Positions 1 to 61,296 of a stretch of 61,296 nt of DNA are shown here, one piece after another. The translations under genes were made by a program, and so were the position numbers. Within the stretch, counting starts at the first letter, position 1. Every line of letters starts with the position of its first letter. The notes beneath the pieces were generated by a model. That model was not told the DNA's origin. It made no database searches and saw only the letters and a program-made list of their open reading frames with translations. This DNA comes from a virus (taxonomy: Duplodnaviria > Caudoviricetes): the IMG/VR virus record IMGVR_UViG_3300046836_000468, positions 1 through 61,296 of that record. The stretch is one strand, 5' to 3'.

Positions 1-127
1 GGCGTACGACCACGAGATTGACGGCGTCGTGAAGCTGGCGATGAGCGAGGCGCCCGTCGACGTGCCCAACACGATCTACTACCGCAAGGCGCTGTCGTGC
101 GGCGACCTCGACGACGCGACGGGCGAG
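1..127. repeat. Terminal direct repeat (assembly overlap), left copy
   Basis: Bases 1-127 are identical to 61170-61296. 127 is a common assembler k-mer length, and an ORF reads through the junction. Confidence 0.95.
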
Positions 128-784
128 GTCATCCCGCCGCCGCCTGGCGAGACTGGCGGCGAGGGCGAAGGCGAAGACGAAGGTCCCATCGGCGGCACGC
201 TGCCCACGCTCCCTGGCGTCGACAACGCGCTACCTGGCCCGCAGCCCGGCATCGACAACGAGCTGCCGCCTGAGCGTCCGCCGCTCGGCAGCACGCTGCC
301 CGAGGGACCGGCCATCGACAACGAGCTGCCGCGTCCGAACTTGCCGCCTATCGGCTCGACGCTGCCCGAGGGGCCGCGCCCCGACAACGAGCTGCCTCTC
401 CCCGAGGAGCTGCCGCCGTTTGGCACGACGCTGCCGACGCGCCCCGGCGTCGACAACGAGCTGCCCCCCGAGCGTCCGCCCATCGGCTCGACGCTTCCCG
501 AGGGACCTGCGCCCGACAACGAGCTGCCGCGCCCTGGCCTGCCGCCTATCGGCTCGACGCTTCCCGAGGGGCCGCGCCCCGGCAACGAGCTGCCGCGCCC
601 TGAGCTGCCGCCAGGGAACACCACGCTGCCCGAGAGTCCTGGCCCCGACAACGAGCTGCCTTACCCCGAGCTGCCCGAGGAGCTGCCGCCCATCGGCGTC
701 AACCTGCCGACGCGCCCCGGCATCGACAACGAGCTGCCCCCCGAGCCGCCGCCCGCGTCTGACGACGCAGAACAGGAGCGCTGA
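2..784 (+). CDS. 3' part of Mu gp38/DUF2635-like tail protein with Pro-rich DNELP repeat extension (true start at 61066 across the junction)
   Basis: Motif VDVPNTIYYRKALSCGDL resembles DUF2635. The gene lies immediately upstream of the sheath gene and carries about 9 DNxLP repeats. Confidence 0.7.
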   Translation, partial: AYDHEIDGVVKLAMSEAPVDVPNTIYYRKALSCGDLDDATGEVIPPPPGETGGEGEGEDEGPIGGTLPTLPGVDNALPGPQPGIDNELPPERPPLGSTLPEGPAIDNELPRPNLPPIGSTLPEGPRPDNELPLPEELPPFGTTLPTRPGVDNELPPERPPIGSTLPEGPAPDNELPRPGLPPIGSTLPEGPRPGNELPRPELPPGNTTLPESPGPDNELPYPELPEELPPIGVNLPTRPGIDNELPPEPPPASDDAEQER

Positions 785-3242: not shown

Positions 3243-5264
3243 GTGAGCATCGAGGCGACCGCAAAAATCACACTAATCGGCGCGAGCGAAGCTCTTAAAT
3301 CGCTGCAGGGTGTGACGCGCGAGACGGGCGCCGCGGGCAAGGCCGCCAAGAGCGCAGCGGACACGCAGGCCGCAGCGGCCAAGAAAGCCGCCGCTGCGCA
3401 GGAGGCTGCAGCCAAGAAGGCTGCGCAGGCGCAAGAGGCCGCTGCCAAGAAGGCTGCAGACGCGTCTATCAAAGAGGGTGAGCGCTGGGCCAAGGCTGCG
3501 CAGCAGAGCGCGATGGTGCGCATGCGCGCGCAGGAAAAAGAAGCCCAGGCCGCCAAGCGGATACAGGAAGAGGCCGCACGCGTTGCAGCGCGCGAGCTCG
3601 CCAAGGTTACGGAGGCAGCTGCGCGCGAGGCAGCTAAGCAGAAGCGCCTCGCCGAGAAGACTGCGGCAGCCGAGGCCAAGGCCAGGCGCGAGACGCTACG
3701 CCAGGTCGGCGGGCTGATGGTCACGGCAGGGTCGGGCCTCGCGGCCGGCATCGGCGTTGCGGTCTCGACGGCGCGCGGCGGGAGCAAGTCGGTGCAGGAG
3801 CGCATCGCGGCCGGCAATGAGTTTCGCGAGCGGCTGTTCAGCGTCACGGGCGCAGCGGGCCAGACCGCCGAGCAGCGCGAAGCCACGCAGGGCAAGATCA
3901 TCGAGGCGAGCAAGGCAACGGGCAAAGACCAGAGCGAGCTGCTCGGCGTCGTCGAGACGGGGCACGCGCAGTTTGGCGACCTGCAGTTCTTCGCGGACAA
4001 CATCAAGGAGATTGCGACCATCGCGAAGGTCGCCAACGCGGACACGGGCGAGTTCGCCAAGGCGATCGGCTCGGTCAAGCAAGCGTTCAACCTGACAGGC
4101 GAGGAGGCCATCCAGGCCGGCTACCTCATGAGCGCGTCTGCAGACAAGGGCTCGGTCGAGCTCAAGGACTTCGCGCGCGACTTCGCGGCGAGCGCGGGCA
4201 TCTTCTCGATGAACACCGGGCAAAAGGGCATCGGGGGCGTGCGCCAGTTCTTGGGCGCCTCGCAGGGCATCGCGACCGGACAGTTCGGTTCGGCCGAGAG
4301 CGCCACGCGGCTCGAGCGCTTCATCACGGACGTCAACGACGTCAAGGTGCGCAAGGAGCTCAAGGGCATCGGCATCAGCAACGTCGCCGACGCGAGCGGC
4401 AAGGTCGACGTCGGCAGGCTGCTCGACCAGCTCGGCAACAACAGCAAGTTCAAGAGCGCCGCGACGCGGCAAAAGGTCTTCACCGAGACGCGGTCGCTGC
4501 AGGCGGTCGAGTCGCTGCTCGCTGCGCGCGAGCGCGAGAAGACGGGCGGCGTCGGCTTCAAGACCATCGCGGGCGTGAGCGAGGAGGCGGGGCGCGCAGC
4601 GATCAGCGGGGGCTTCGCGTCGCTCTCCCAGGAGGGTTTCTTCAAGAACCAGGTCGCGGCCGCCGAGATGCAGGCCGACACGATGAGCCACCTGGACGAG
4701 ATGAACACGCAGCTCGGCGCCGTCAGTGGCGCAGCGGACACGCTCGAGAAGAGCTTCGGCGCGCTGTCCATCTGGGCGAGCAGCATCGCCGCGATGGGCG
4801 TGACGTCGGTCTTGTCCGCTGCCATCCAGGGCAAGCTGTTCGGCGGCGCAGCGGCAGAGTCGGGCGGGCTGCTGGGCAAGGCGGCCGGCGCAGTCGGCGG
4901 CGCGGCAGGCGCGTCGGCGAGCGCGCTCAGCGCGACCGCAGCGGCGGGCGGGCTCGCAGGCGGCGCCGTGATGGCAGGCGGGGCGCTCGTCGCAGGCGCG
5001 GCCGGCTACGCGCTCGGCGAGGGCATCAACGCGGGGACAAGCGCCCTGCGCGACGACAAGCAGAGCCTGAGCGACCTGCTCGCGGGCGTGCTCGAGCAGC
5101 TCGCGAGCGGCGGCCTGGGCGACGCCAAGAGCCGCATCGGCGCGACCATCGTCAACTCGGACGGCGGCTCGCGCACGATCGTGGCCGAGCTCAAGGAGAT
5201 CAACGCAGGGCTGAAAGCAGCAGCAGCCAAGCCAACGGCCGGCGCGCCGAGGGAGCCGCGCTGA
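3243..5264 (+). CDS. Tail tape measure protein
   Basis: 673 aa, Ala/Lys-rich and helical, with GSVELKD motif and Gly/Ala-rich hydrophobic C-terminus; follows the chaperones. Confidence 0.88.
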   Translation: MSIEATAKITLIGASEALKSLQGVTRETGAAGKAAKSAADTQAAAAKKAAAAQEAAAKKAAQAQEAAAKKAADASIKEGERWAKAAQQSAMVRMRAQEKEAQAAKRIQEEAARVAARELAKVTEAAAREAAKQKRLAEKTAAAEAKARRETLRQVGGLMVTAGSGLAAGIGVAVSTARGGSKSVQERIAAGNEFRERLFSVTGAAGQTAEQREATQGKIIEASKATGKDQSELLGVVETGHAQFGDLQFFADNIKEIATIAKVANADTGEFAKAIGSVKQAFNLTGEEAIQAGYLMSASADKGSVELKDFARDFAASAGIFSMNTGQKGIGGVRQFLGASQGIATGQFGSAESATRLERFITDVNDVKVRKELKGIGISNVADASGKVDVGRLLDQLGNNSKFKSAATRQKVFTETRSLQAVESLLAAREREKTGGVGFKTIAGVSEEAGRAAISGGFASLSQEGFFKNQVAAAEMQADTMSHLDEMNTQLGAVSGAADTLEKSFGALSIWASSIAAMGVTSVLSAAIQGKLFGGAAAESGGLLGKAAGAVGGAAGASASALSATAAAGGLAGGAVMAGGALVAGAAGYALGEGINAGTSALRDDKQSLSDLLAGVLEQLASGGLGDAKSRIGATIVNSDGGSRTIVAELKEINAGLKAAAAKPTAGAPREPR

Positions 5265-29840: not shown

Positions 29841-29898
29841 GTACATTCTGTACGCGATGTACACGGCGTACTGTCTGTACACGACGTACAGCTTGTAC
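29841..29898. repeat. Centromere-like (parC/parS) array 1: 7 x GTAC at exact 9-bp spacing
   Basis: GTAC at 29841, 29850, 29859, 29868, 29877, 29886 and 29895, immediately upstream of the parA RBS. Confidence 0.8.
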
Positions 29899-29912
29899 AC
29901 GAGGGGCAGACG

Positions 29913-30695
29913 ATGATCATCGTGAGCGGCGGACAGAAGGGCGGCACGGGCAAGACGATGCTCGCGACCATGCTCGCGGTCCTGTTCAAATGGATGGGGC
30001 TCGACGTCCTGCTCGTCGACGCCGACCCGTCGCAGGGCTCGAGCAGCGAGTGGGCCAACGAGCGACGCGCAGCGCGCGAGGCCGCGCGCAAGATGGGGGT
30101 CGAGACGCCTATCCCGCACGTCCCGTGCGTGACGCTCGCCGGCATCGTCTACGACGAGCTGCGCGACCTCGAGCGACGCTACGACGTCATCGTCGTCGAC
30201 TGCGGCGGCGCCGAGAGCGAGGAGTTCACCTCGGCCTGCCTCGCAGCAGTCGCTGTTTACACGACCATCCTGCCGAGCGCGTGCGACCTCAAGACCATTC
30301 CCAAGGTCGAGAAGGCCATCAAGCTCTCGCGCGCGGGCGGCAATCGCGAGCTCGTTGCCAAGGTCATCCTCAACCAGTGCTCGAACAACCGGCATGCGAC
30401 CGACAAGCAACGCGCTCGCGAGAAGCTCGCGCAGTACCCGGCGCTCGTCGTCTCTGATCGCTCGATCAACTTCCGCGAGAGCTTCATGGACGCCTACGGA
30501 GAGTGGCTGTCCGTCAACGAGCTCGCCGTCCACGGCTCTAAAGAAGCGCGCAACAAAGCGCGCAAGGCAGCAGCCGAAGCCTGGGCAGTATTCGAGGAAG
30601 TCTGCGCCGACGTGGAGATCCCAGTACACGAGGTACTTGCTGTACCCGGTGTACACGCGGTACACGACGTACACGATGTACAGGAGGTACAGTGA
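29913..30695 (+). CDS. parA: ParA-family partition ATPase (type Ib, no N-terminal HTH)
   Basis: Deviant Walker A QKGGTGKT, LVDADPSQGS and VIVVDCG motifs. Confidence 0.9.
   Translation: MIIVSGGQKGGTGKTMLATMLAVLFKWMGLDVLLVDADPSQGSSSEWANERRAAREAARKMGVETPIPHVPCVTLAGIVYDELRDLERRYDVIVVDCGGAESEEFTSACLAAVAVYTTILPSACDLKTIPKVEKAIKLSRAGGNRELVAKVILNQCSNNRHATDKQRAREKLAQYPALVVSDRSINFRESFMDAYGEWLSVNELAVHGSKEARNKARKAAAEAWAVFEEVCADVEIPVHEVLAVPGVHAVHDVHDVQEVQ
30624..30690. repeat. Centromere-like array 2: 8 x GTAC at 9-bp spacing inside the parA 3' end
   Basis: GTAC at 30624, 30633, 30642, 30651, 30660, 30669, 30678 and 30687; encodes the V-x-x repeat tail of ParA. Confidence 0.8.
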
Positions 30696-30997
30696 AGCAG
30701 TCACCACCCGAGATACCGCGCGCCACCGTGCACGGCCTATCCAGCAAGGCCCCGATCAAGTCGCGGCGAGAGCTGCCGTTCGAGAAGCACGACCCGGACG
30801 CCAAGCCGGACAAGGCGTTCCGCTTCGAGACCAATGCCTACGACCGCGCGCTGTTCAAATACGTGGCTGTGCTGCGCGGGGAGGGCGAGAGCGTGACGGA
30901 TGTGATCCGCAAGTTCGCGCGCGACCGCGCGCAGCGCGAGCTTGGCAAGGCCGCCAAGCCGGGTGCCGCTGCAGAGCAGGTGTCCGATGACCCGTAA
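30692..30997 (+). CDS. Small centromere-binding partner of ParA (ParG/RHH-like)
   Basis: Coupled to parA with GGAGG RBS; AFRFET strand followed by helices (ESVTDVIRKF). Confidence 0.6.
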   Translation: MKQSPPEIPRATVHGLSSKAPIKSRRELPFEKHDPDAKPDKAFRFETNAYDRALFKYVAVLRGEGESVTDVIRKFARDRAQRELGKAAKPGAAAEQVSDDP

Positions 30998-43291: not shown

Positions 43292-43749
43292 ACCACAGGA
43301 GCTCGAGCATGCCGGTCGCGGTCTACGTCGCAGGCGCCAGCGCGGAGCGCGAGCGTGTCAGGAAGTGGGCCGCGGCCGTGTCGCGCTCGCGCTCGCTCGA
43401 GCTCGCCGACCGCTGGTTTGACAGCGACGCGCCAGGCCCGAGCAACATGACGCTCACGCACCCGCAGGCGCTCTACCTGCTGCACCAGTATCGCTCGCTG
43501 CGCTGCGCCGCGATCTTCTGGTTGCTCTGGCCGGAGCAACCAGACCACGGCTCGGCGCTGCTCGAGTACGGCTACGCGCTTGCCCATCGCTTCCACGCCA
43601 CGGGCGGCTTTGCCATCCTGGTGAGCGGCCTGACTGCCTCCGCCAGCGCGCTCTCGCTCCAAGCGGACTTCCGCAGCGACAGCGACGCGCTCGGCTTTGA
43701 CGCCGTGCTGGCGCTCGCCGCCACGCGCGCCAGGGAGTCGACGCGGTGA
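43288..43749 (+). CDS. Nucleoside 2-deoxyribosyltransferase-like protein
   Basis: VYVAG N-terminus and GSALLEYGYALA motif. Confidence 0.55.
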   Translation: MNHRSSSMPVAVYVAGASAERERVRKWAAAVSRSRSLELADRWFDSDAPGPSNMTLTHPQALYLLHQYRSLRCAAIFWLLWPEQPDHGSALLEYGYALAHRFHATGGFAILVSGLTASASALSLQADFRSDSDALGFDAVLALAATRARESTR

Positions 43750-44780
43750 GGGACTATGCGCAGGTCAGGCCGACGCTGTGGACCGGCGAGACCGGGCGCC
43801 TACTGCGCGGCAACGCCAACGCGCAGCGCGTGCAGTTCTATCTGCTCACGTGCTCGAGCAGCAACATGGCGGGGCTGTTCTACCTGCCCCTTCCCCTGCT
43901 CTGCCACGACCTCGGGATGCCCTTGGAAGGGGCTCTCGAGGGGCTTCGGAGCCTTTCCGAGGTCGACTTCGCGGTCTACGACGAGCCGACTTCGTACGTC
44001 TGGGTGCTCAACGCAGCGCGCGAGAGCGTCGGGAGCAATCCGAGCCACGCCGACAACCGCGTGCTCGGCATCAGGCGGGAGCTCGAGCGCCACGCCAAGT
44101 GCCCGTTCTACGACGCGTTCGTCGAACGCTACGCAGCCCTGTTTGAGGACAGGCCCGCCCCGGTCGTGCAGGCCAAAACAAGAGCCCGTCCCAAGCCCCT
44201 TCAAAGGGGGTCACAAGGGAGTGCCAATTCAGGATCAGGATCAGGATCAGGATCAGGATCAGGATCAGGAGCAGAATTAAGAGAGAGCGCGGGCGCGCTC
44301 TCCCCGCATGCGCGCGCGCGCTTGACGGCTTCGCCTCCCGAGGAGAGCGAGACCCGGAGCCCAGACGAGACCGAGACCCTGACCGCGACGCAGCTGCGCG
44401 GGCTGTTCCGCTCGACCTGGATGCGCGCCGACCGCGCCGACCCGCCCATGCCTGCCGAGGACAAGCTCGCCGAGCTCGCCGAGCGCGTGACCGACACGGC
44501 GGCGCAGCGGCGCGTCGCGCCGGCCGAGCTGCTCACCACCACGCTCGAGCGCTGGGCGAAGGGCGAGCGCAATGCGCGCGAGCTGCGCGCCCCGGTGCAG
44601 TGCTTTGCGCAGGCGTTCGGCGAGGTGCTCGACCAGACCGAGGGCGGCGTGCCGCGCTTGTCGCCGACCGACGCGCTCTCACGCAAGGGCATGGAGGCGA
44701 TGCGTGCGGGCGACTTCGACCGCTACGACGCCATCCAGGCGGAGCTGCGCGCGCTCAACGGCGGAGGCTCGCATGCGTGA
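43746..44780 (+). CDS. Phage replisome organiser / lytic replication initiator
   Basis: MRDYAQVRPTLW..YLLTC..NMAGLFYLP N-terminus; low-complexity linker; position after cro. Confidence 0.7.
   Translation: MRDYAQVRPTLWTGETGRLLRGNANAQRVQFYLLTCSSSNMAGLFYLPLPLLCHDLGMPLEGALEGLRSLSEVDFAVYDEPTSYVWVLNAARESVGSNPSHADNRVLGIRRELERHAKCPFYDAFVERYAALFEDRPAPVVQAKTRARPKPLQRGSQGSANSGSGSGSGSGSGSGAELRESAGALSPHARARLTASPPEESETRSPDETETLTATQLRGLFRSTWMRADRADPPMPAEDKLAELAERVTDTAAQRRVAPAELLTTTLERWAKGERNARELRAPVQCFAQAFGEVLDQTEGGVPRLSPTDALSRKGMEAMRAGDFDRYDAIQAELRALNGGGSHA
44229..44270. repeat. (TCAGGA)7 perfect tandem repeat
   Basis: Seven exact copies encoding (SG)7 inside the initiator gene. Confidence 0.9.
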
Positions 44781-47999: not shown

Positions 48000-48400
48000 G
48001 CAAGAACCTCTACAACGAAGACCTGCGCGCGCGCGTCTGCCAGCTCATCCAGGCAGGCATCGACGAGCTCGATGCCTTCGGCGTCGAAGGCATCTCGCGC
48101 ACGACGTACTTTCGGTGGAAGGCCGAGGGCAAGGAAGGCGTCGAGCCGTACGCGTCGCTCTGGGTCGACGTCGAGCAGGCGGCGTCCAAGCGCAACACGA
48201 CGCTCACGTTCTGGGCGATGCGCGCCGCGAAGGCCGGCAACATCGAGGCGATCTTCAAGCAGCTGCGCGCGCACCGACCTGACCTGTACAACGACAAGCA
48301 GCGCCTCGAGCTGAGCGGCCCCAATGGCGGCCCCATCACGGCGGGCATTCGCTACGTCGTGCACGTACCCGAGGACGAACCCGAGGAGCAGGACCCATGA
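47996..48400 (+). CDS. terS: Terminase small subunit
   Basis: HTH GISRTTYFRW and C-terminal ELSGPNGGPI; precedes terL. Confidence 0.8.
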   Translation: MSKNLYNEDLRARVCQLIQAGIDELDAFGVEGISRTTYFRWKAEGKEGVEPYASLWVDVEQAASKRNTTLTFWAMRAAKAGNIEAIFKQLRAHRPDLYNDKQRLELSGPNGGPITAGIRYVVHVPEDEPEEQDP

Positions 48401-48546
48401 TCAATCTACGCAACGTGCTGGTCGTCCTGCTGCTGCTCGTGCTGCTCGCGCACTTCTGGCACGGCGGCATCCCGCTTGCGTTCAGCGGCTCGCTCGGGTT
48501 TCTGCTCTTGCTGCTGCTCATCCTGGTGCTGGTCGGCGCGCTGTGA
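48397..48546 (+). CDS. 49-aa two-TM protein (DUF3309-like or holin candidate)
   Basis: MINLRNVLVVLLLLVLLAHFWHGGIPLAFSGSLGFLLLLLLILVLVGAL; ATGA and GTGA overlaps on both sides; absent from the ORF track. Confidence 0.6.
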   Translation: MINLRNVLVVLLLLVLLAHFWHGGIPLAFSGSLGFLLLLLLILVLVGAL

Positions 48547-49937
48547 CCAGCGAGGCCACCGTCGAGGAGGTGCACGTTCGACCCAACGCGGGGCCGCAGA
48601 GCGCGGCTATTGCGTCGTCGGCGGACATCACTTTGACGGGTGGGGCAGCCGGGGGAGGCAAGACCTGGTCAACGCTGTTTCGCTTCGGTCTGCACGCTGC
48701 GCGCTATCCGAAATACTACGGCGCGATCTTCCGGCGCGAGATGCCGCAGGTCACGATGGGCGGCGGCATCTGGGAAGAGTCGATGAGCCTCTACCCGATG
48801 TGGTCTGCTCGTCCGAACTTCTCGACGCACGAGTGGCGCTTCCCCGAGACGCGCTCGCTCATCCAGCTGCGCGGTCTGCAGCACGCCAAGGACGTCATCG
48901 ACTACGCAGGCGCGCAGTTCGCGGAGTTCGCGTTCGAGGAGGCGACTCTCTTTGAAGAGCGCCAGTTCTGGTTTCTCTACTCGCGCCTGCGCTCGCAGTG
49001 CGGCATGAGGCCGCGCGCCTTCCTGACGTGCAACCCCGACCCCGACAGCTGGGTCGCCAGGATGGTCGCGTGGTGGATCGGCGAGGACGGCTACGCCATC
49101 GCGGCGCGCGCAGGCGTCAAGAGGTACTTCGTGCGCGACGGCGATGACCTCGTCTGGGGCGACACGGCAGACGAGGTGCGTGACCGCGCCGCGCACGTGC
49201 TGCGCCGACCGCGCGCGACCCGTCCGCAGAGCTTCCGCTTCATCCCTGCGATGCTGGCCGATAACCCCAAGGGCGACCCCGACTACGAGACCAAGCTCAT
49301 GGCGCTGTCGCTCGTCGAGCGCATGCGTCTGCTCGGCGGCAACTGGAAGATACGCGCAGCCGCAGGCACCGTGTTCAAGCGCGTGTGGTTCGAGATCATC
49401 GACCGGCTGCCGAGCGACGTCATCGCGACGAGCCGCGGCTGGGACCTTGCGGCGACGCAGCCAAGCACCGACAACAAAGAGCCGGACTGGACGCGCGGCG
49501 TCAAGATGTCGCGGCACGCGTCGGGGCTGTTCGTCGTGCAGGACGTCAAGAGCCTGCGCGACCGCCCCTACGCCGTCGAGCAGCTGGTGCACAGGACGAC
49601 CCGCGAGGACGGCAGGCACTGTCGCCAAGCGCTGTGGCAGGACCCTGGCGGCGCCGGCAAGAGCGAGGCGCAGCGCTTCCTGCGCGAGCTCGCCGGCTGG
49701 GACGTGCGCATCGTCGCTGCAGCCGAGGATAAGCTCACGTACGCCAAGCCCGTCAGCGCGCAGGCCGAGGGCGGCAACATGAAGCTTCTGCGCGGCGACT
49801 GGAACGAGAGCTACCTCAACGAGCTCGAGGCGTTCCCTGACGGCGCCAAGAAAGACCAGGTCGACGCGACGAGCCGCGCGTTCATCGACCTGACCACGAG
49901 CGTCACGCCGACGCCCTTCTACGTGCCCGGACTCTAG
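48543..49937 (+). CDS. terL: Terminase large subunit
   Basis: GGAAGGGKT Walker A, FEEAT Walker B, TCNP, RGWDLAAT, QDPG and DQVDA nuclease motifs. Confidence 0.93.
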   Translation: MTSEATVEEVHVRPNAGPQSAAIASSADITLTGGAAGGGKTWSTLFRFGLHAARYPKYYGAIFRREMPQVTMGGGIWEESMSLYPMWSARPNFSTHEWRFPETRSLIQLRGLQHAKDVIDYAGAQFAEFAFEEATLFEERQFWFLYSRLRSQCGMRPRAFLTCNPDPDSWVARMVAWWIGEDGYAIAARAGVKRYFVRDGDDLVWGDTADEVRDRAAHVLRRPRATRPQSFRFIPAMLADNPKGDPDYETKLMALSLVERMRLLGGNWKIRAAAGTVFKRVWFEIIDRLPSDVIATSRGWDLAATQPSTDNKEPDWTRGVKMSRHASGLFVVQDVKSLRDRPYAVEQLVHRTTREDGRHCRQALWQDPGGAGKSEAQRFLRELAGWDVRIVAAAEDKLTYAKPVSAQAEGGNMKLLRGDWNESYLNELEAFPDGAKKDQVDATSRAFIDLTTSVTPTPFYVPGL

Positions 49938-49948
49938 GAGACACCGCC

Positions 49949-51529
49949 ATGCCATTCGCATCTACGAAAGACGCCCTCGAAGCCAAACGCGACGGCTACC
50001 TGCTCGAGCTCGAGTGGCATCAGTTCCTGCTCGACAGCTACACCGGCGCAGGCGGCTACCTCGGCCGCATCAAGCAAGACGCCGCGGGCTTCTGGGGCAT
50101 CGTCACGCAGACGTACAGCAAGTTCGCGACGCTCAGCAAGAGCGTGGTCGAGTCGTCGCACAGCTACCTCGACCGCTTCAATGCCGAGGACGCCATCAAG
50201 TACCAGCGCCGCGTCGACGTCGCGCACTACCTGAACTACGTCGAGCCGACCACGGCGATCAAGGTCGGGTACATCGCCCGCAAGCCCCACAAGCGCAACA
50301 ACGTGCCGCCCGAGCTGCTCGAGTGGATCGACCGCACCGGCTACGACAAGGACTTCAGGCGCCGCGTGCTCGTCACGGCAGTGCTCGGGTGGTTCCCGCT
50401 GCAGGTCGACATGCCGAGCGCGCCGCGCGAGGCGCTCACGGCCGAGCAGGCGGGCAAGCTCGACCCGTACGTCGTGCTCAACCTGCCCTGCCACCTGTTC
50501 GACTACGAGCTCGACGACGACGGCAGCTTCATCTGGGCGAAGCTCGGCGTGACGTTCACGCGCAAGCCCTCGTGGGACCAGGAGGCCGAGCGGGTCACGC
50601 GCTACACGATCTGGACGCGCACCGACTGGACGGTCTACGAGGTCTCGGGCGACGTGACGGGCGCGCCGACGAGCGGCACGCACGCGTTCGGCGCGGTGCC
50701 CATCGTATCGTGGCGTGCGGACACGAGCGTCGAGGACAGCGTCAAGGCCAAGAGCGTCAACGCGAACATCGCGCTCGAGTGCCGCAGGCTGTTCAACCTC
50801 ATCAGCGAGATGGACGAGCACATCCGCTGTCAGGTGTTCGCGCAGCTCGTCTGGCCGGGCGCTGCACCGGCTGCGAACAACACGGGCACGGGCGGCGTCT
50901 CGACGGGGCTCGTCATCAGCGACCAGGCCAAGGTGGTGCCGTTCTACCTCGCGCCGCCTGCGAGCATCGCCGCGACGCTCGAGGCGCGCATCGTCGCCAC
51001 CATCATCGAGATTTATCGCATCAGCGGCGTCGAGTACGCCAAGGCCAGCGGCGTCAACACGAGCGCGCAGAGCAAGGAGGTCGAGTTCGAAAAGACCAAC
51101 GTCCAGATCGTGTCGCTCGCGCAGGCGGTGGCGCGCGCCGACCGCGACACGCTCATCATCACGGGGCGCGGGCTCAAGATTGCCGAGGACAAGCTGCAGG
51201 CCATCGAGTGCACCGCGCACGAGAGCTACGCGGACGCCGCGCTCGGCGACGAGCTCGAGCAGGTGACGCAGGCGCTCTCGCTCGGCATCGGTCGGCAGGC
51301 CAAGGTCGAGATGCTGCAGCGGCTCGTCCAGAAGCTGCTGCCCGGCCTTGCGAGCGACACCAAGCAGACCATCGACAGCGAGATCGAGGACGAGGTCGAC
51401 CAGGCGCAGAAGGACAAGGAGGCGCTGACGGCGCAGCTCACCGAGGGCGGCGCGCCCGACGACGAGCCGCCGCCTGACGAGGAGGACGACGACGAGGAGA
51501 CGCCGCCCGAGGACAAGGAGGCTGCCTGA
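49949..51529 (+). CDS. Portal protein
   Basis: 526 aa after terL; YQRRVDVAHYLNY and HAFGAVPIV motifs; acidic tail. Confidence 0.85.
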   Translation: MPFASTKDALEAKRDGYLLELEWHQFLLDSYTGAGGYLGRIKQDAAGFWGIVTQTYSKFATLSKSVVESSHSYLDRFNAEDAIKYQRRVDVAHYLNYVEPTTAIKVGYIARKPHKRNNVPPELLEWIDRTGYDKDFRRRVLVTAVLGWFPLQVDMPSAPREALTAEQAGKLDPYVVLNLPCHLFDYELDDDGSFIWAKLGVTFTRKPSWDQEAERVTRYTIWTRTDWTVYEVSGDVTGAPTSGTHAFGAVPIVSWRADTSVEDSVKAKSVNANIALECRRLFNLISEMDEHIRCQVFAQLVWPGAAPAANNTGTGGVSTGLVISDQAKVVPFYLAPPASIAATLEARIVATIIEIYRISGVEYAKASGVNTSAQSKEVEFEKTNVQIVSLAQAVARADRDTLIITGRGLKIAEDKLQAIECTAHESYADAALGDELEQVTQALSLGIGRQAKVEMLQRLVQKLLPGLASDTKQTIDSEIEDEVDQAQKDKEALTAQLTEGGAPDDEPPPDEEDDDEETPPEDKEAA

Positions 51530-52479: not shown

Positions 52480-52982
52480 CGATGACCGACACCGTAGACG
52501 CAGACTTCGACCAGCTCGACCACGCGCTGCTCAGCGGGCAGCTCACCACCGACCGGCTCGCCGCGCTGCAGCCGCGCACGCAGTGGACGCGCATCGAGAC
52601 GCACCCCGAGATACTCGCGCAGCCGTACGTCGTCGCGCTCGGCACGTACCTCGAGCCGCGCAAGGACGGCCTACGCGTCATCGTCACGCTCGACCTGGCG
52701 TCCGACGTGGGCGCGGGCGACTGGCTGCACCTGAGCGTCTCGCGCGAGCGCAGGCTGCCGACCTGGGGCGACCTCGTCTCGACGCGCGACATGCTCGGCT
52801 ACGAGGAGCTGTACTTTCTGCAGCAGCTGCCGCCGCGCAGGTACTGGCTCAACGTGCACCCGTACTGCCTGCACCTCTTGCACAGGCTCGACCAGGACGC
52901 TGTGCCGCGTCTGCTCTGGGAGGGGCAGGAGGGCGGCGACGGATCGAACTACCAGCACAGCAAAACAAGGACAAGGCCATGA
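52476..52982 (+). CDS. Conserved phage protein (WLHLSVSR..RLPTW..NVHPYCLHL)
   Basis: Recognisable His-rich motif family of phage hypotheticals. Confidence 0.7.
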   Translation: MTMTDTVDADFDQLDHALLSGQLTTDRLAALQPRTQWTRIETHPEILAQPYVVALGTYLEPRKDGLRVIVTLDLASDVGAGDWLHLSVSRERRLPTWGDLVSTRDMLGYEELYFLQQLPPRRYWLNVHPYCLHLLHRLDQDAVPRLLWEGQEGGDGSNYQHSKTRTRP

Positions 52983-53542
52983 AGACATACCGAGCAAAGA
53001 TCAAGAGCAAGTCGCCCTACTCTCAGTCTCGTTATCACCAGACCGAGCACCTCGACAAAGAGGGCGACGACGCCTACGAGCGACGAACGTGGCGCGAGCG
53101 CATGCACTACGACGAGAACGGCGAGGTGTTCATCCCGCCGATGAGCCTGAAGAACTGCCTGGCTGAGGCCGCGAAGTTTCTGAGCGTGTCGATCAAGGGC
53201 AAGGGCAAGGCGACGTACACGAAGCACTTCGAGGCTGGCATCATGGTGACGACACCGATCAGCCTCGGCATCAAGGTGCAAGACGTGCCAGTCGAGGCGC
53301 TGTTTGTGCCGAGTAACGGCAGGCGCGGAGGAAGCACTCGCGTCACCCGGTACTTCGGACGCATCCCCAAGTGGTCGGGCGAGTTCGAAATCAACGTGCT
53401 CGACGAGACCATCACCAAGGACGTTCTCGAGCTGCACCTGTGCGAGGCCGGCAGCTTGATCGGCATCGGGCGCTTTCGCCCGCGCAACAACGGCTACTAC
53501 GGTCGCTTCGCTGTCGAGTCGCTAGAGGAGGTGGTGTCATGA
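52979..53542 (+). CDS. Stand-alone RAMP / Cas7-like RNA-binding protein (187 aa)
   Basis: N-terminal strand with SP, FIPPMSLKNCL (cf. Csm3/Cmr4 IPGSSLKG), beta-hairpin thumb, and C-terminal Gly-rich loop GSLIGIGRFRPRNNGYYGRF. Confidence 0.8.
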   Translation: MKTYRAKIKSKSPYSQSRYHQTEHLDKEGDDAYERRTWRERMHYDENGEVFIPPMSLKNCLAEAAKFLSVSIKGKGKATYTKHFEAGIMVTTPISLGIKVQDVPVEALFVPSNGRRGGSTRVTRYFGRIPKWSGEFEINVLDETITKDVLELHLCEAGSLIGIGRFRPRNNGYYGRFAVESLEEVVS

Positions 53543-54051
53543 GCGGGAGCTCTGCCGCACGACGCGTGGCGCTGCTGTCCGAGCCGACTCAGAAGGTGCT
53601 GGAGCGCATGCGGACAGCTGCGGTCGGAGACATGGTGCCATGGGAAGAACTCGAGGCGATCACCGGTCGACCACGTGACGCTGTGCGAGACATGGCGCGC
53701 ACAGCGTCGAAGCGGCTGCAGAACGACGAGAAGATGCACTTCCGCACCTGCATAGCGGTAGGCGTAGAGCGCATCCCATTCACGACTGTCGCGCGCGAGG
53801 AGCTGCCTACGCAGCGTAAGCGCATCGGCGCAGCAGCAGGCCGTATGTTGCGCACAACGGAGAACGTCATCCTCGATGGCATGAGTCGAGACGACTGCGA
53901 CCAGGTATTGCTCCACCAAGCGATTGCTGGTGTGACGCAGATAGCGTGCTCGAACGAGGGGCTCAGACGCCTACGCGCAAGCACTAGCGCTCTCGCGACA
54001 GTCCCACCGTTCTCTCCGAGAGAAGCCGCAGAGATGCTCTTCTCTGAGTGA
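53539..54051 (+). CDS. Accessory protein coupled to the RAMP gene (wHTH-like N-terminus plus helical region)
   Basis: GGAGG RBS, ATGA overlap; GDMVPWEELEAITG..ARTASKRL..GVGV-like wing; atypical codon usage. Confidence 0.65.
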   Translation: MSGSSAARRVALLSEPTQKVLERMRTAAVGDMVPWEELEAITGRPRDAVRDMARTASKRLQNDEKMHFRTCIAVGVERIPFTTVAREELPTQRKRIGAAAGRMLRTTENVILDGMSRDDCDQVLLHQAIAGVTQIACSNEGLRRLRASTSALATVPPFSPREAAEMLFSE

Positions 54052-54310
54052 GCGCAGCATGGATTGACTCGGTTTGGCTGGGCAGGGCAGGACGTGGACG
54101 CAGCATCGCTTGGCGTGGCTAGGCTCGACTCGGCAGGGCAAGACAAGACAAGGGCAGTACCCAAAAGTTTTCGCGCTCGCGCGAGCGGGTGTGTTTCGGT
54201 GACAGGGCAACTCAGGGGCATTGCAAGACGGGACGCGGCATGGCGGGACTCAGCAACGCCGGGCTCAGCAAGACAAGGCAAGGGCAGTACCTAAGCAGCG
54301 AGCAGGCTCG
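54051..54310 (+). ncRNA. Putative guide-RNA array: two units of 5-nt periodic RRC-NN pentamers with shared 3' tail and hairpin
   Basis: Units at 54051-54162 and 54201-54291; both end CAAGACAAG(A/G)CAAGGGCAGTACC; hairpins at 54174-54187 and 54299-54310. Confidence 0.7.
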
Positions 54311-54322
54311 GGAGGGCAGACC

Positions 54323-54577
54323 ATGACTGACGACACAGCAGACAACCTCGCGGCCGCGCACGCGCAAGGCGCCGACGTCATCCGCGCCGTCAACGGGTGG
54401 TGCTTCGAGCGCGGCATGTACGTCGTCGCGATCGGGCGCGTCGCCCACCACGACCGCTACCACTGCCGCGTGCAGCCCGCGTACGGCGCCGACGTGCTGT
54501 GCGTCGAGAGCGACACGCTGTCCGGTCTGCTCGAGCGGCTGAACAGGTGGCACACGACCGGCAAGCCCGATGGCTGA
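54323..54577 (+). CDS. Hypothetical protein
   Basis: GGAGG RBS, ATG at 54323. Confidence 0.55.
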   Translation: MTDDTADNLAAAHAQGADVIRAVNGWCFERGMYVVAIGRVAHHDRYHCRVQPAYGADVLCVESDTLSGLLERLNRWHTTGKPDG

Positions 54578-54782
54578 CCGCGAGCACGATGGCCGCGTGA
54601 CCATCACGGCGAAGCACGAGGGTCCGGCCCAGGCAGACACGATGGTTTTCCTGGCTGGGCAAGAGCAGTCGTTTCACTGCTCTTGCGGCTGCAACGTGTT
54701 CAAGCGCGTGAAGCCGCACGAGCTCCGGTACCGCTGCAACTCATGCAGGGCTGTCTACGAGGGGACTGCACGCCATGGCTGA
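54570..54782 (+). CDS. Zn-ribbon protein
   Basis: FHCSCGCNVF and YRCNSC motifs. Confidence 0.6.
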   Translation: MADREHDGRVTITAKHEGPAQADTMVFLAGQEQSFHCSCGCNVFKRVKPHELRYRCNSCRAVYEGTARHG

Positions 54783-56124
54783 CAAGCCCAAGCTCAAGCC
54801 CAAGCGCCCTCGCCTGCGCGCGCCAGCCGCGCCGCGCGTCGGGCCGACGCCGCTCAGGGTCTACCGCGCCGAGCTCTCGAAGCTGCTCGGTGCTGTGCAG
54901 CGCGGCGAGCTCGAGCTCGAGGCGGCGCACGCGCAGCTCGCCAAGAACGTGCTCGCCCAGCTGCCCGAGGCCGTCAAGGGGCGCCGCTCGACCGCAGAGC
55001 TCGAGGCAATCTTCGACGCCGAGTTTGCGAAGACCTTCCCCGCGCGCGTGCGCATCGTGCGGCAGTCCATCCGCGCAGGCGCAGACGCCGGCCCCGCTGC
55101 CAGTCAGCAGACGTTCCGCGCCGTGATGGGCGACGAGGTGCTCGACGCGCAGGTCCGCGCGACGTCTGCAGCCATGTCCGAAGCTGCAGACCGCATCGCC
55201 GGGCGCATCACCGTCGACAAGGTCGGGCTGACCAAGCGCATGCGGCGCGTCGACCGCGAGGTCTCGCAGCAGATGGCAACCGAGGTGCAGCGCGGCATCA
55301 GGCAGAAGCGCGGCATCCTCGGCGCAGCGCGCAAGATCGAGCGCATCGACCCGCGCGCCGTCGAGCTCCCCCAGTACCTACAGGACCTCGAGGCCGCCGC
55401 ACGCGCAGGCGACAAGGGCGCGGTGCGCGACATTGCGCGCAGCTACGCGGGGCGCATCGCCAAGCTGGGCGAGGCGCAGACAGACGGCACGTTCATCGCG
55501 AGCAAGTACAGCCTCAAGAGCGCGACCAAGAAGTTCGTGCGCGAGGTGCAGACCGCCAGCGACAGCCAGCTCGACAGCGTCGTCAAGCGCTACGTCCAAG
55601 ACAAGCTCGCCTTCCAGGCCAACCGCATCGCACGCTCCGAGACGGTCGAGGCGATGCGCCAGAGCTACGTCAAGCAGACTGCAGACAAGCCCGGCGTGGT
55701 CTGCTTCGAGTGGCGGCTGAGCAACCGGCACGAGGCGGCGTTGCACGGCGGCTCGAAGATGGACGTCTGCGACATCCTCGCGAACCAGAACGCGTACGGC
55801 CTCGGGCCTGGGCGCTACCCGGCTGAGCACGTGCCCGCGATGCCGCACCCGAATTGCCTCTGCACGGTGCACGCCGTCATCGACCGCAAGTTCTTCGACC
55901 GCCCTGCAGACGAGGATGGCCAGGTGCCCGAGGACATGCAAGACCACGAGTCGCCCGACGCGGCCGGCTGGCTCGCTGCGAACCCGGACAAGGCGCGCGC
56001 CATCCTCGGTCCGACGCGGCATGCGCTGCTCGAGAAGGGCGTGCCGGTGCTCGAGCCGACCGGGCAACCCAAGCGCGTCGGCGACCTGCTCAAGCCCGGC
56101 GCCCGCAAGGCAGTCCCGCGGTGA
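54775..56124 (+). CDS. Minor head morphogenesis protein (Mu gpF / SPP1 gp7-like)
   Basis: ANRIARSET, DVCD..A and PHPNCLC motifs. Confidence 0.85.
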   Translation: MADKPKLKPKRPRLRAPAAPRVGPTPLRVYRAELSKLLGAVQRGELELEAAHAQLAKNVLAQLPEAVKGRRSTAELEAIFDAEFAKTFPARVRIVRQSIRAGADAGPAASQQTFRAVMGDEVLDAQVRATSAAMSEAADRIAGRITVDKVGLTKRMRRVDREVSQQMATEVQRGIRQKRGILGAARKIERIDPRAVELPQYLQDLEAAARAGDKGAVRDIARSYAGRIAKLGEAQTDGTFIASKYSLKSATKKFVREVQTASDSQLDSVVKRYVQDKLAFQANRIARSETVEAMRQSYVKQTADKPGVVCFEWRLSNRHEAALHGGSKMDVCDILANQNAYGLGPGRYPAEHVPAMPHPNCLCTVHAVIDRKFFDRPADEDGQVPEDMQDHESPDAAGWLAANPDKARAILGPTRHALLEKGVPVLEPTGQPKRVGDLLKPGARKAVPR

Positions 56125-58676: not shown

Positions 58677-59567
58677 ATGGGACTAGCGCTAGACGACGTG
58701 CCGTATGAGCCGGCGACCGAGTACACCGATCGCTGGGTGTTCGCGCTCAGCGACACGCTCGAGGGCGAGCACGGCGGCACGTTCTTCGAGGCAGGCGTAG
58801 CGACGCGCCCGGTCGACGTGCGCGGCCTGCGCAAGTTCATCTGCGCGCACATCGTGCTCGGCGCGCTGCGCGTCGAGGGCGCGCCGCTCGAGCTCGGCGA
58901 CACCAGCAAGCTCGTGGGCGATGGCGGCGAGGAGGGCGAGGGCGAGGGCGAGGGCGAGACCGACCCGAACGCGCCCACGGGCGGCACGCTGCCCGCCATC
59001 CCTGGCATCGACAACGCGCTGCCGGGGGAACAGCCCGGCATCGACAACACGCTGCCGCCCGAAGTGCCGCCCATCGGCACGACGCTGCCGACGCGCCCTG
59101 GCGTCGACAACGAGCTGCCAGGCGAGCAGCCCGGCATCGACAACGAGCTCCCGCCTGAGCGTCCGCCCATCGGCGCGACGCTGCCCGAGGGGCCCGGTCC
59201 TGACAACACGCTGCCCAGGCCAGAGCTGCCTGACGAGCTGCCGCCTGTCGGCGTGACGCTGCCTGAGCGCCCCGAGGGCGGCACGCTGCCGTCCATTCCC
59301 GAGGCTGGGCAGGAGCTGCCCGACCCCGAGCCCATCCCGGACAACGAGCTGCCAGGCGAGCGCCCGCCCGTAGGCGCGACGCTGCCGACGCGCCCCGGCA
59401 TCGACAACGAGCTGCCGCCCGAGCCCGATCCTGCGCCCGAGCTCGAGCGCCTGCGCGAGCAGGAGCGCGCCCGCGAGCGCGAGCGTCGGCGCGAGCACGA
59501 GAAGCCCGTCCCGCCGCCCCACACGCCCAGCTGGAGCGAGAAGCTCAAGGGCAAGAAGGGCAAGTGA
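58677..59567 (+). CDS. Post-capsid protein with Pro-rich DNELP repeat cassette
   Basis: Small N-terminal domain (GTFFEAGVAT) plus about 7 DNxLP repeats similar to those at 2-784. Confidence 0.75.
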   Translation: MGLALDDVPYEPATEYTDRWVFALSDTLEGEHGGTFFEAGVATRPVDVRGLRKFICAHIVLGALRVEGAPLELGDTSKLVGDGGEEGEGEGEGETDPNAPTGGTLPAIPGIDNALPGEQPGIDNTLPPEVPPIGTTLPTRPGVDNELPGEQPGIDNELPPERPPIGATLPEGPGPDNTLPRPELPDELPPVGVTLPERPEGGTLPSIPEAGQELPDPEPIPDNELPGERPPVGATLPTRPGIDNELPPEPDPAPELERLREQERARERERRREHEKPVPPPHTPSWSEKLKGKKGK

Positions 59568-61073: not shown

Positions 61074-61296
61074 TACGCTCAGAGTCCGCGCCGTCGAAGG
61101 GCGCTTGCTGCAGTGGGAGGGCGACGCGCATCGCGGCTACGTCGGCTGGTCGACTGCGCCTGCGGGCGCGGCGTACGACCACGAGATTGACGGCGTCGTG
61201 AAGCTGGCGATGAGCGAGGCGCCCGTCGACGTGCCCAACACGATCTACTACCGCAAGGCGCTGTCGTGCGGCGACCTCGACGACGCGACGGGCGAG
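61066..61296 (+). CDS. 5' part of the gp38/DUF2635-like gene (continues at 128-784)
   Basis: GGAG RBS; MADTLRVRAVEGRLL.. in frame through the terminal overlap. Confidence 0.7.
   Translation, partial: MADTLRVRAVEGRLLQWEGDAHRGYVGWSTAPAGAAYDHEIDGVVKLAMSEAPVDVPNTIYYRKALSCGDLDDATGE
61170..61296. repeat. Terminal direct repeat (assembly overlap), right copy
   Basis: Identical to 1-127. Confidence 0.95.

What the first reader, a model, noticed from the sequence alone, without database searches (positions are those of the whole stretch)
54051..54310. Two-unit RRC-NN pentamer array that may encode a gapped dinucleotide guide
Seen, unit 1: agcgc agcat ggatt gactc ggttt ggctg ggcag ggcag gacgt (g) gacgc agcat cgctt ggcgt ggcta ggctc gactc ggcag ggcaa gacaa gacaa GGGCAGTACCC, then the palindrome CGCTCGCGCGAGCG (54174-54187). 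Unit 2: gacag ggcaa ctcag (g) ggcat tgcaa gacgg gacgc ggcat ggcgg gactc agcaa cgccg ggctc agcaa gacaa ggcaa GGGCAGTACC, then the hairpin CGAGC-AG-GCTCG (54299-54310). Positions 1-3 are mostly GGC, GAC or AGC, while positions 4-5 vary. Both units end in three AA pentamers and the same tail, and each has one 1-nt register slip. A period of 5 is incompatible with a codon pattern, and a constant scaffold with variable NN is unlike slippage-derived satellites. Inference: the NN strings carry the specificity (unit 1: GC AT TT TC TT TG AG AG GT / GC AT TT GT TA TC TC AG; unit 2: AT AA GG GC AT GG TC AA CG TC), and the tail plus hairpin is a processing or termination handle. I found no self-target by eye, but that search was not exhaustive.
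Basis: partly seen in the sequence, partly recalled or inferred. Interest (0 to 1): 0.9.

Follow-up and report, generated by a model that had tools for sequence, protein, structure and literature searches.

The report
VIPR guide-RNA array in soil phage
The five-base periodic stretch is the guide-RNA array of a VIPR system, a phage-borne relative of CRISPR first described in 2026 preprints, so it is a real new example of a known kind and not a new kind of system.

Summary
The period-5 pattern at 54051-54310 is real. It is the strongest period-5 signal in the 61-kb record. It lies in the intergenic space just downstream of two overlapping genes.

- Gene 52979-53542 encodes a Cas7-like RAMP protein. 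Its family profile hits the solved "SUSP1 Vipr protein" at E 3e-10.
- Gene 53539-54051 encodes a winged-helix accessory protein. Relatives of it lie beside vipr in 48 ORFs of loci L001-L058.
- In 57 of 57 related loci the strongest period-5 window lies within 1 kb of the vipr gene; 22 would be expected at random.
- Pentamer positions 1-3 are conserved and positions 4-5 are near-random (0.44-1.28 versus 1.79-1.98 bits).
- A near-identical phage has 94-97% identical flanking genes. It carries three units with unrelated NN strings and the same tail.

This matches the VIPR systems of bioRxiv 10.64898/2026.04.26.720920: GGY/NN vrRNAs that guide a Vipr filament to DNA by a gapped code.

No natural target was found, and no RNA data exist.

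Verdict: new member of a known kind.

The parts
52979..53542 (+). vipr gene (187 aa): Cas7-like RAMP protein with a glycine-rich loop. Its start overlaps the stop of the upstream DUF7694 gene.
   Evidence: Family profile A1 hits PDB 36pp_D 'SUSP1 Vipr protein' at E 3.3e-10, next hit E 0.53. The single sequence gives E 2.5e-6. AF2 model pLDDT 92.1. Foldseek top hits are type VII Cas7 and Csm3 at E about 4e-7. phrog_4652.
53539..54051 (+). vap-type accessory gene (170 aa): N-terminal winged helix plus long C-terminal helices. Its start overlaps the vipr stop.
   Evidence: jackhmmer finds the family in 48 ORFs of loci L001-L058, next to vipr. AF2 pLDDT 91.9 with a helix-strand-helix-helix-strand-strand order. 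Foldseek gives only weak matches, mostly winged-helix regulators, best E 0.035.
54051..54095 (+). unit 1, upstream tract of 9 pentamers, followed by one extra base at 54096. It is a diverged duplicate of the next tract.
   Evidence: A 44-nt direct repeat, 54048-54091 versus 54094-54137, is 70% identical.
54097..54151 (+). unit 1, tail-anchored tract of 11 pentamers. The last three have NN = AA and are constant among relatives.
54152..54161 (+). tail motif of unit 1 (GGGCAGTACC)
   Evidence: Present in 9 of 9 units of the window, L047 and L001, one with a 1-nt insertion and one with a single base change.
54172..54200 (+). hairpin (54172-54193, containing the palindrome 54174-54187) plus a U-rich run. 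It looks like an intrinsic terminator or a 3' end structure of vrRNA 1.
   Evidence: Terminator-like site. 9-pair hairpin in the fold. 6 of 6 internal units of the three phages have a 7-9 pair hairpin at this place, with different stem sequences.
54201..54216 (+). unit 2, short upstream tract of 3 pentamers plus one extra base
54217..54281 (+). unit 2, tail-anchored tract of 13 pentamers. The last three have NN = AA.
54282..54291 (+). tail motif of unit 2 (GGGCAGTACC)
54292..54322 (+). leader and ribosome-binding region of the next gene (ATG at 54323). It holds the non-conserved inverted repeat 54299-54310. There is no terminator hairpin after the last unit.
   Evidence: no stable fold, z +1.05.

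Best explanation
The stretch is a two-unit vrRNA array of a VIPR (Viral Interference Programmable Repeat) system. The system is carried as a lower-GC insert between the portal and head-morphogenesis genes of a 61-kb temperate tailed phage from soil.

Shown here: a Vipr-type RAMP gene and a conserved winged-helix accessory gene sit directly upstream on the same strand. The array has the vrRNA anatomy, that is 5-nt units with a conserved triplet and a hypervariable dinucleotide, followed by an invariant tail.

Inferred from the characterised SUSP1 and P. fulva systems:
- The array is transcribed into two RNAs of roughly 100-150 nt.
- One Vipr protomer binds each pentamer, hides the triplet and presents the NN pair.
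- The filament reads double-stranded DNA as NN-x-NN-x (one skipped base per unit) and silences transcription of a competing mobile element.

Inferred from anatomy: the hairpin plus U run after unit 1 sets that RNA's 3' end. The constant AA pentamers plus GGGCAGTACC act as the handle from which the filament grows 3' to 5'. The single extra base in each unit breaks the register, so it probably marks the 5' limit of the working guide, leaving 8 and 10 variable NN.
For: Protein. A1 profile versus PDB: SUSP1 Vipr at E 3.3e-10 and nothing else below 0.5. The pairwise alignment covers the G-loop region. The AF2 model has pLDDT 92. There are 138 Foldseek matches at E <= 0.001, led by Cas7 and Csm3 backbone subunits.

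Association. The strongest period-5 window lies within 1 kb of vipr in 57 of 57 loci, against 22.2 expected. A strict GGY caller finds 71 arrays within 1.5 kb of vipr (185 kb searched) in 29 of 57 loci, against 2 arrays in the other 208 kb. By my count from that table, 66 of the 71 are on the vipr strand. Several loci are near-duplicates of one phage, so the counts are not all independent.

RNA anatomy. Per-position entropy is 1.28, 1.08, 0.44, 1.79 and 1.98 bits. The tail is invariant. Hairpins follow 6 of 6 internal units.

Hypervariability. Window versus L047: vipr 97% and vap 94% DNA identity, array 59%, and 2 versus 3 units.

No self-target. The best self or cross matches are 14/18, 14/18 and 16/22, equal to shuffled guides. 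The preprint reports the same for its systems.

Viral setting. Terminase, portal, capsid, sheath and integrase genes.

Literature. Defining features read.
Against: - No natural target was found under the 1-nt skip rule.
- There is no expression evidence, because no RNA run holds the stretch.
- The scaffold is degenerate. The two tail-anchored tracts conform to GGY at only 27 of 33 and 31 of 39 positions (my count), and my strict GGY caller does not call the window's own array.
- Two SUSP1 residues that read the guanines are not matched in the pairwise alignment. D177 aligns with R165 and R138 with F126. W178 aligns with F166 and R179 with R167 (my count along the alignment, residues named).
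- The skip rule has been shown experimentally only for type II systems, and this Vipr is distant from them (31 bits).
- Both units carry a register slip, which could also mean decay.
Confidence: 0.88

Rival explanations
1. A decaying or inactive VIPR locus. The genes and array descend from a VIPR system, but the window's guides are no longer functional because of the loosened scaffold, the register slips and the lack of a target.
For: GGY conformity is only about 0.8 and my strict caller misses the array. There is a +1 slip in both units. No target was found.
Against: Both genes are intact and overlap as in an operon. The Vipr invariant residues are kept. The same loosened scaffold, slips and tail occur in the relatives L001 and L047, with fresh NN content and different unit numbers. 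That argues for turnover under selection and not for decay. Position 3 and the tail are almost invariant.
Confidence: 0.07
2. A cis-acting RNA leader. The periodic triplets bind an oligomeric protein on the nascent transcript and control termination at the 54172-54193 hairpin, and so expression of the downstream genes. This would work like the TRAP-trp leader system (recalled from general knowledge).
For: Triplets spaced by 2 nt and a terminator-like hairpin lie between unit 1 and the downstream gene. Unit 2 runs into the ribosome-binding site of the next gene.
Against: The downstream genes differ between relatives. L047 goes straight into head morphogenesis, and ORFs C and D are found only in L001 or not at all. 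In most loci the arrays sit between vipr and vap or upstream of vipr. No TRAP-family domain appeared in the Pfam scan of the ten neighbouring proteins. Hypervariable NN with a conserved tail has no role in an attenuator. This rival is not exclusive of the main reading.
Confidence: 0.03
3. A double-stranded DNA site array (iterons or a centromere) bound by the winged-helix protein, with no RNA role.
For: A winged-helix gene is always adjacent. A 5-bp period is half a helical turn.
Against: There is strong strand asymmetry: 66 of 71 strict arrays lie on the vipr strand, and the sense strand is G-rich. Each internal unit ends in a hairpin plus U run. The adjacent RAMP protein belongs to an RNA-binding fold whose solved relative binds exactly such repeats. 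A hypervariable dinucleotide in every unit is unlike protein-binding iterons.
Confidence: 0.02

Closest known systems
Type II VIPR systems of Escherichia phage SUSP1 and a Pseudomonas fulva prophage (bioRxiv 10.64898/2026.04.26.720920 and 10.64898/2026.04.26.720927)
   Same: A phage-borne two-gene locus (RAMP-like Vipr plus a DNA-binding-type accessory gene) is flanked by arrays of 5-nt units with a conserved triplet and a hypervariable NN. Each RNA ends in an invariant tail and there is no self-target. The G-loop motif is shared, with an aromatic residue and Arg-Pro-Arg aligned.
   Different: The protein relation is only distant (31 bits, E 2.5e-6). Positions 1-2 of the triplet are loosened here. 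The tail is short: constant AA pentamers plus GGGCAGTACC, followed by a terminator-like hairpin, and I saw no sign of the pseudoknot reported for the SUSP1 clade. Tracts reach 18-19 units in relatives, against the reported 9-16. Here the gene order is vipr-vap-array. Expression, RNP formation and the skip rule are untested. I could not assign the VIPR type because the supplements are closed.
Class 1 CRISPR backbone: Cas7 / Csm3 / Cmr4 filaments on crRNA
   Same: Same protein fold (Foldseek E about 4e-7). One protomer binds per fixed RNA step, and a thumb interrupts guide-target pairing periodically (paper's words).
   Different: There is no repeat-spacer array, no other cas gene and no adaptation module in the record. 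The step is 5 nt with 2 pairing bases, not 6 nt with 5. The locus is phage-encoded.
TRAP and the trp leader of Bacillus (recalled, not tested against a reference)
   Same: Triplets separated by 2-3 nt are bound one per subunit by an oligomeric protein, next to a terminator.
   Different: The protein fold is unrelated, it is a cis regulator with no guide function, and no TRAP domain was found among the ten neighbouring proteins scanned.

Membership tests
VIPR system | A Vipr protein: a minimal RAMP (RRM core, glycine-rich loop, thumb) encoded beside the array | tested here: met
   Profile hit to the solved SUSP1 Vipr at E 3.3e-10. Pairwise E 2.5e-6 over residues 101-184. Confident model whose best fold matches are Cas7-family subunits.
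VIPR system | Residues that read the GGY triplet in SUSP1 Vipr (H17, R138, D177, W178, R179) | tested here: inconclusive
   By my count along the alignment, W178 aligns with F166 and R179 with R167 (both invariant in A1). D177 aligns with R165 and R138 with F126. H17 lies outside the aligned part. Arginines R116 and R121 are invariant in the thumb region.
VIPR system | vrRNA: at least 4 (typically 9-16) tandem 5-nt units of GGY + NN in the intergenic space flanking vipr | tested here: met
   Tracts of 9+11 and 3+13 units on the vipr strand, 0-270 nt after vap. Conformity to GGY is 27/33 and 31/39 in the tail-anchored tracts. The preprint notes frequent internal degeneracy and variant consensus forms.
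VIPR system | NN hypervariable while the triplet is conserved across related arrays | tested here: met
   Entropy 1.79 and 1.98 bits against 1.28, 1.08 and 0.44 bits over 139 pentamers. NN identity between guides is about 0.25 and scaffold identity about 0.7.
VIPR system | Invariant 3' tail after the repeat tract | tested here: met
   The tail motif is present in 9 of 9 units in three phages, one with a 1-nt insertion and one with a single base change. Its structure is not established, because the pairs found are invariant and show no covariation.
VIPR system | A vap accessory gene, in several types a predicted DNA-binding protein | tested here: met
   The family lies next to vipr in 48 ORFs of L001-L058. 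The model shows winged-helix topology. Fold matches are weak, best E 0.035, and sequence matches to PDB are not significant, best 0.056.
VIPR system | Viral or proviral location | tested here: met
   Terminase, portal, capsid, scaffold, tail sheath, baseplate and integrase genes. A 127-nt terminal direct repeat. The record is held as a virus record.
VIPR system | No self-targeting at 80% or more NN match | tested here: met
   The best matches of the window's three guides in the window and two relatives' records are 13/18, 13/18 and 14/22.
VIPR system | Natural target matching the guide by the 1-nt skip rule (at least 80% of NN) | tested here: inconclusive
   Exact 8- or 9-NN seeds in viral and metagenome contigs gave 14, 3, 8, 26 and 16 stretches that do not extend beyond chance. 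In 401 genomes there were 7 hits with 2 mismatches, none with 0-1, and 1 control hit. The searches needed exact seeds and the host is unknown.
VIPR system | vrRNAs are expressed and co-purify with Vipr; reporter silencing | not testable with these tools
   No RNA run holds the stretch.
CRISPR-Cas | Repeat-spacer array and further cas genes (Cas1/Cas2, large subunit, nuclease) | tested here: not met
   No such array appears among the repeats. There were no Cas families in the Pfam, PHROG or PADLOC scans of the neighbours.

The most novel reading that the evidence does not exclude
This sub-clade (window, L001, L047) may be a distinct vrRNA architecture and not just a further copy of the described ones. 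Only position 3 of the triplet is near-invariant. Tracts are composites joined by single-base register slips, seen in 3 of 9 units. The handle is a run of constant AA pentamers plus a 10-nt motif containing a GTAC palindrome, not a pseudoknot. Internal units are closed by terminator-type hairpins. If the slip is functional, one transcript could carry two guides read in different registers, or the slip could set filament length.
Probability: 0.25. Interest if true: 0.5.

Novelty: new member of a known kind. Interest (0 to 1): 0.35.

Why it matters
VIPR is a months-old discovery, in which RNA-guided DNA recognition uses a non-contiguous code. Only two closely related systems from Enterobacteria and Pseudomonas phages have been dissected. 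This locus adds a complete, apparently intact example in a high-GC soil phage.

It belongs to a Vipr clade that is conserved at 45-64% identity (81% in the closest relative) in 49 viral contigs. The same clade occurs in genomes titled as seven different bacterial lineages.

Its looser scaffold, short tail and terminator-delimited units give natural variation for asking three questions. Which parts of the triplet and tail does the protein really need? How are the ends of vrRNAs made? How fast do guides turn over between near-identical phages?

It also shows that a simple period-5 scan next to phrog_4652 genes finds such arrays reliably.

Tried and rejected
Led nowhere:
- Tandem Repeats Finder does not see the array.
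- Rfam at E <= 10 gave only two chance miRNA rows.
- There are no tRNA genes and no sigma-70-like promoter in 52500-55500.
- PADLOC gave nothing for five proteins.
- RNAalifold on six tails gave a weak structure with no useful covariation, because the hairpins were misaligned.

Target search, all negative or at chance level:
- Local scan of 909 kb at skip 0-3 with shuffled guides. The perfect skip-3 matches are the arrays themselves.
- Window plus the whole records of L001 and L047.
- Exact seeds in viral contigs. The best full-guide scores were 22/26 and 21/26, with extensions no better than chance.
- Three 18/18 matches for the 9-NN upstream tract, against 1.6 expected from 26 seeds. They lie in unrelated genes. 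In two of them the skipped base falls on codon position 1.
- One metagenome seed gave 16 stretches. None extended, and no second guide hit the same contig.
- 401 genomes of the phylum of G003 gave 7 two-mismatch hits against 1 control hit.

Host. The capsid protein found only distant relatives in 6 of 301 genomes of that phylum, best 37% identity.

Expression. No RNA holder is listed.

Complex prediction. I did not use complex prediction, since a pass would not have changed my odds.

Ideas considered and dropped:
- A TRAP-like attenuator, my first idea.
- A G-quadruplex.
- A rut site on the opposite strand.
- A coding region. There is no conserved frame, and unit numbers differ between relatives.

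Not seen. Supplementary files of the three preprints are closed.

Full report
Observation. The stretch lies between the stop of an ORF at 54051 and the ATG of the next at 54323. Cut in fives, it gives 9 pentamers, one extra base and 11 pentamers. Then come a 10-nt motif (GGGCAGTACC, 54152) and a hairpin with a U-rich run. After that come 3 pentamers, one extra base, 13 pentamers and the same motif (54282). Period-5 self-identity here is the highest in the 61,296-base record: 0.535 against a mean of 0.274 and sd of 0.038, with all 15 top windows starting at 54026-54106. Tandem Repeats Finder misses it. Contigs of four other public runs reproduce parts of the array without a difference.

Setting. 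The record is a tailed temperate phage. It carries terminase (48315-49937), portal (49841-51529), head morphogenesis (54775-56124), scaffold, major capsid, tail sheath, baseplate, integrase and Sak4-like and DnaD-like genes. A 127-nt exact repeat sits at both ends, and the 'genome' held for it is the window itself. The array sits in a lower-GC insert (0.60-0.65 against 0.69 overall) between portal and head morphogenesis. Directly upstream, with overlapping start and stop codons, are a 187-aa gene (52979-53542, phrog_4652) and a 170-aa gene (53539-54051).

The link between protein and array. The 187-aa protein has relatives in 49 viral contigs with GC from 0.33 to 0.68. Identity is 45-64%, and 81% in the closest relative. 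It also has relatives in 8 genome contigs titled as very different lineages. In 57 of 57 of these loci the strongest period-5 window lies within 1 kb of the gene; 22.2 would be expected at random. A strict GGY-NN caller finds 71 arrays within 1.5 kb of the gene, in 29 of 57 loci, and 2 arrays elsewhere. 66 of the 71 are on the gene's strand (my count). Some loci are near-duplicates, so these are not 57 independent events. Typical arrays have 10-16 clean GGC-NN units and end in two or three units with NN = AA.

Identity. A profile of 28 family members hits one solved structure, 'SUSP1 Vipr protein', at E 3.3e-10; the next hit is at 0.53. The single sequence gives E 2.5e-6 over the C-terminal half, including the glycine-rich loop. 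The AlphaFold model is confident (pLDDT 92.1). Its best fold matches are the Cas7-family backbone subunits of type VII and type III CRISPR complexes (E about 4e-7, 138 matches at E <= 0.001).

A literature search led to three 2026 preprints. I read the Results, two Methods sections and some passages of 10.64898/2026.04.26.720920. I read the abstract and Results of 10.64898/2026.04.26.720927. I read the abstract and one Methods section of 10.64898/2026.10.15.759431. They describe VIPR systems as follows:
- A minimal RAMP protein (Vipr), an accessory gene (vap) and vrRNAs of 9-16 YNNGG units with a conserved GGY, a hypervariable NN and an invariant 3' tail.
- One protomer binds per unit. The NN pairs read double-stranded DNA with one skipped base per unit, on either strand and without a PAM.
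- The outcome is transcriptional silencing of competing phages and satellites.
- There are seven types, variant consensus forms and frequent internal degeneracy.

Tests of membership. Over 139 pentamers from 12 tracts of the window and its two closest relatives, entropy is 1.28, 1.08 and 0.44 bits at positions 1-3 and 1.79 and 1.98 bits at positions 4-5. L047 has vipr and vap DNA 97% and 94% identical to the window. Yet it has three units, not two, the arrays align at 59%, and the NN strings are unrelated (about 25% identity, against about 70% for the scaffold). L001 (Vipr 81%, Vap 57%) has four units. The tail is present in 9 of 9 units, with a 1-nt insertion in one unit and a single base change in another, and the two or three pentamers before it always carry AA. 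All 6 internal units are followed by a 7-9-pair hairpin and a U run with differing stem sequences. The last unit of each phage instead runs into the ribosome-binding site of the next gene. The 170-aa protein belongs to a family found next to vipr in 48 ORFs of L001-L058. Its model (pLDDT 91.9) has a winged-helix N-terminal domain and long C-terminal helices. Fold matches are weak, though mostly winged-helix regulators (best E 0.035). The other neighbours (DUF7694, ORFs C and D) are not conserved partners.

What does not fit neatly.
- The window's scaffold is loose. Position 1 is G in 99 of 139 pentamers, position 2 is G in 101 of 139, and position 3 is a pyrimidine in 136 of 139. My strict caller misses the window and L001.
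- Both units contain a one-base slip, as does one unit of L001. In the tail's register the upstream tracts no longer present the triplet. I therefore infer that the working guides are the tail-anchored tracts (8 and 10 variable NN). The upstream tracts would be either a second guide or a remnant of a 46-nt duplication.
- Of the SUSP1 residues named as reading the triplet, two align with like residues and two do not.
- The inverted repeat at 54299-54310 is not conserved and not predicted to fold.

Targets. I applied the 1-nt skip rule. I found nothing above shuffled controls in any of the following:
- the record itself, the two relatives' whole records, or 909 kb of held loci;
- exact 8-NN seeds in viral contigs and a 9-NN seed in metagenome contigs, whose hits do not extend and do not attract a second guide;
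- 401 genomes of one phylum, which gave seven 2-mismatch hits against one control hit and none better.

Absence of self-targets agrees with the preprint. Absence of a foreign target is uninformative, because the searches needed exact seeds and the host is unknown. No RNA data exist.

Verdict. This is a vrRNA array of a VIPR system, in a Vipr clade distant from the two characterised systems. It is therefore a new member of a known, very recently described kind. What remains open is whether the loosened scaffold, the slips, the short tail and the terminator hairpins amount to a distinct architecture, and what the guides aim at.

Noticed in passing
window 1-127 and 61170-61296: Exact 127-nt direct repeat at the two ends of the record. 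This suggests a complete circularly assembled or terminally redundant phage genome of about 61.2 kb.
   Followed up: partly
window 29841-29909 and 30615-30701: Two arrays of 9-nt units that each begin with GTAC (about 7 units each), 770 nt apart, in the region between the tail and replication modules. They could be operator or iteron sites.
   Followed up: no
window 146-760 and 58935-59436: The same proline-rich 33/66/96-nt tandem repeat family occurs in two ORFs, one at the start of the record and one just after the major capsid gene.
   Followed up: no
window 44229-44274: Hexamer TCAGGA repeated 7.7 times (97% matches) inside the DnaD-like ORF 43701-44780.
   Followed up: no
L025 about 4575-4700; L032 about 4580-4650: Period-5 arrays right after the vipr homologue whose conserved triplet is not GGY on the vipr strand (C-G-C-like in L025, C-T-C in L032). 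They may be variant scaffolds or arrays on the opposite strand.
   Followed up: partly
window 53713 to 54417 (runs X6 and X8): A low-depth record joins 53713 to 54417 with 29 other letters in between. That would be a form lacking the end of vap, the whole array and the start of the next gene. At 80% likeness it may equally come from another organism (table 5c).
   Followed up: no
window 52850-54350: The vipr-vap-array module has GC 0.60-0.65 against 0.69 for the record. It is inserted between the portal and head-morphogenesis genes, and in other phages the same module sits in other contexts. It behaves like a mobile moron.
   Followed up: partly
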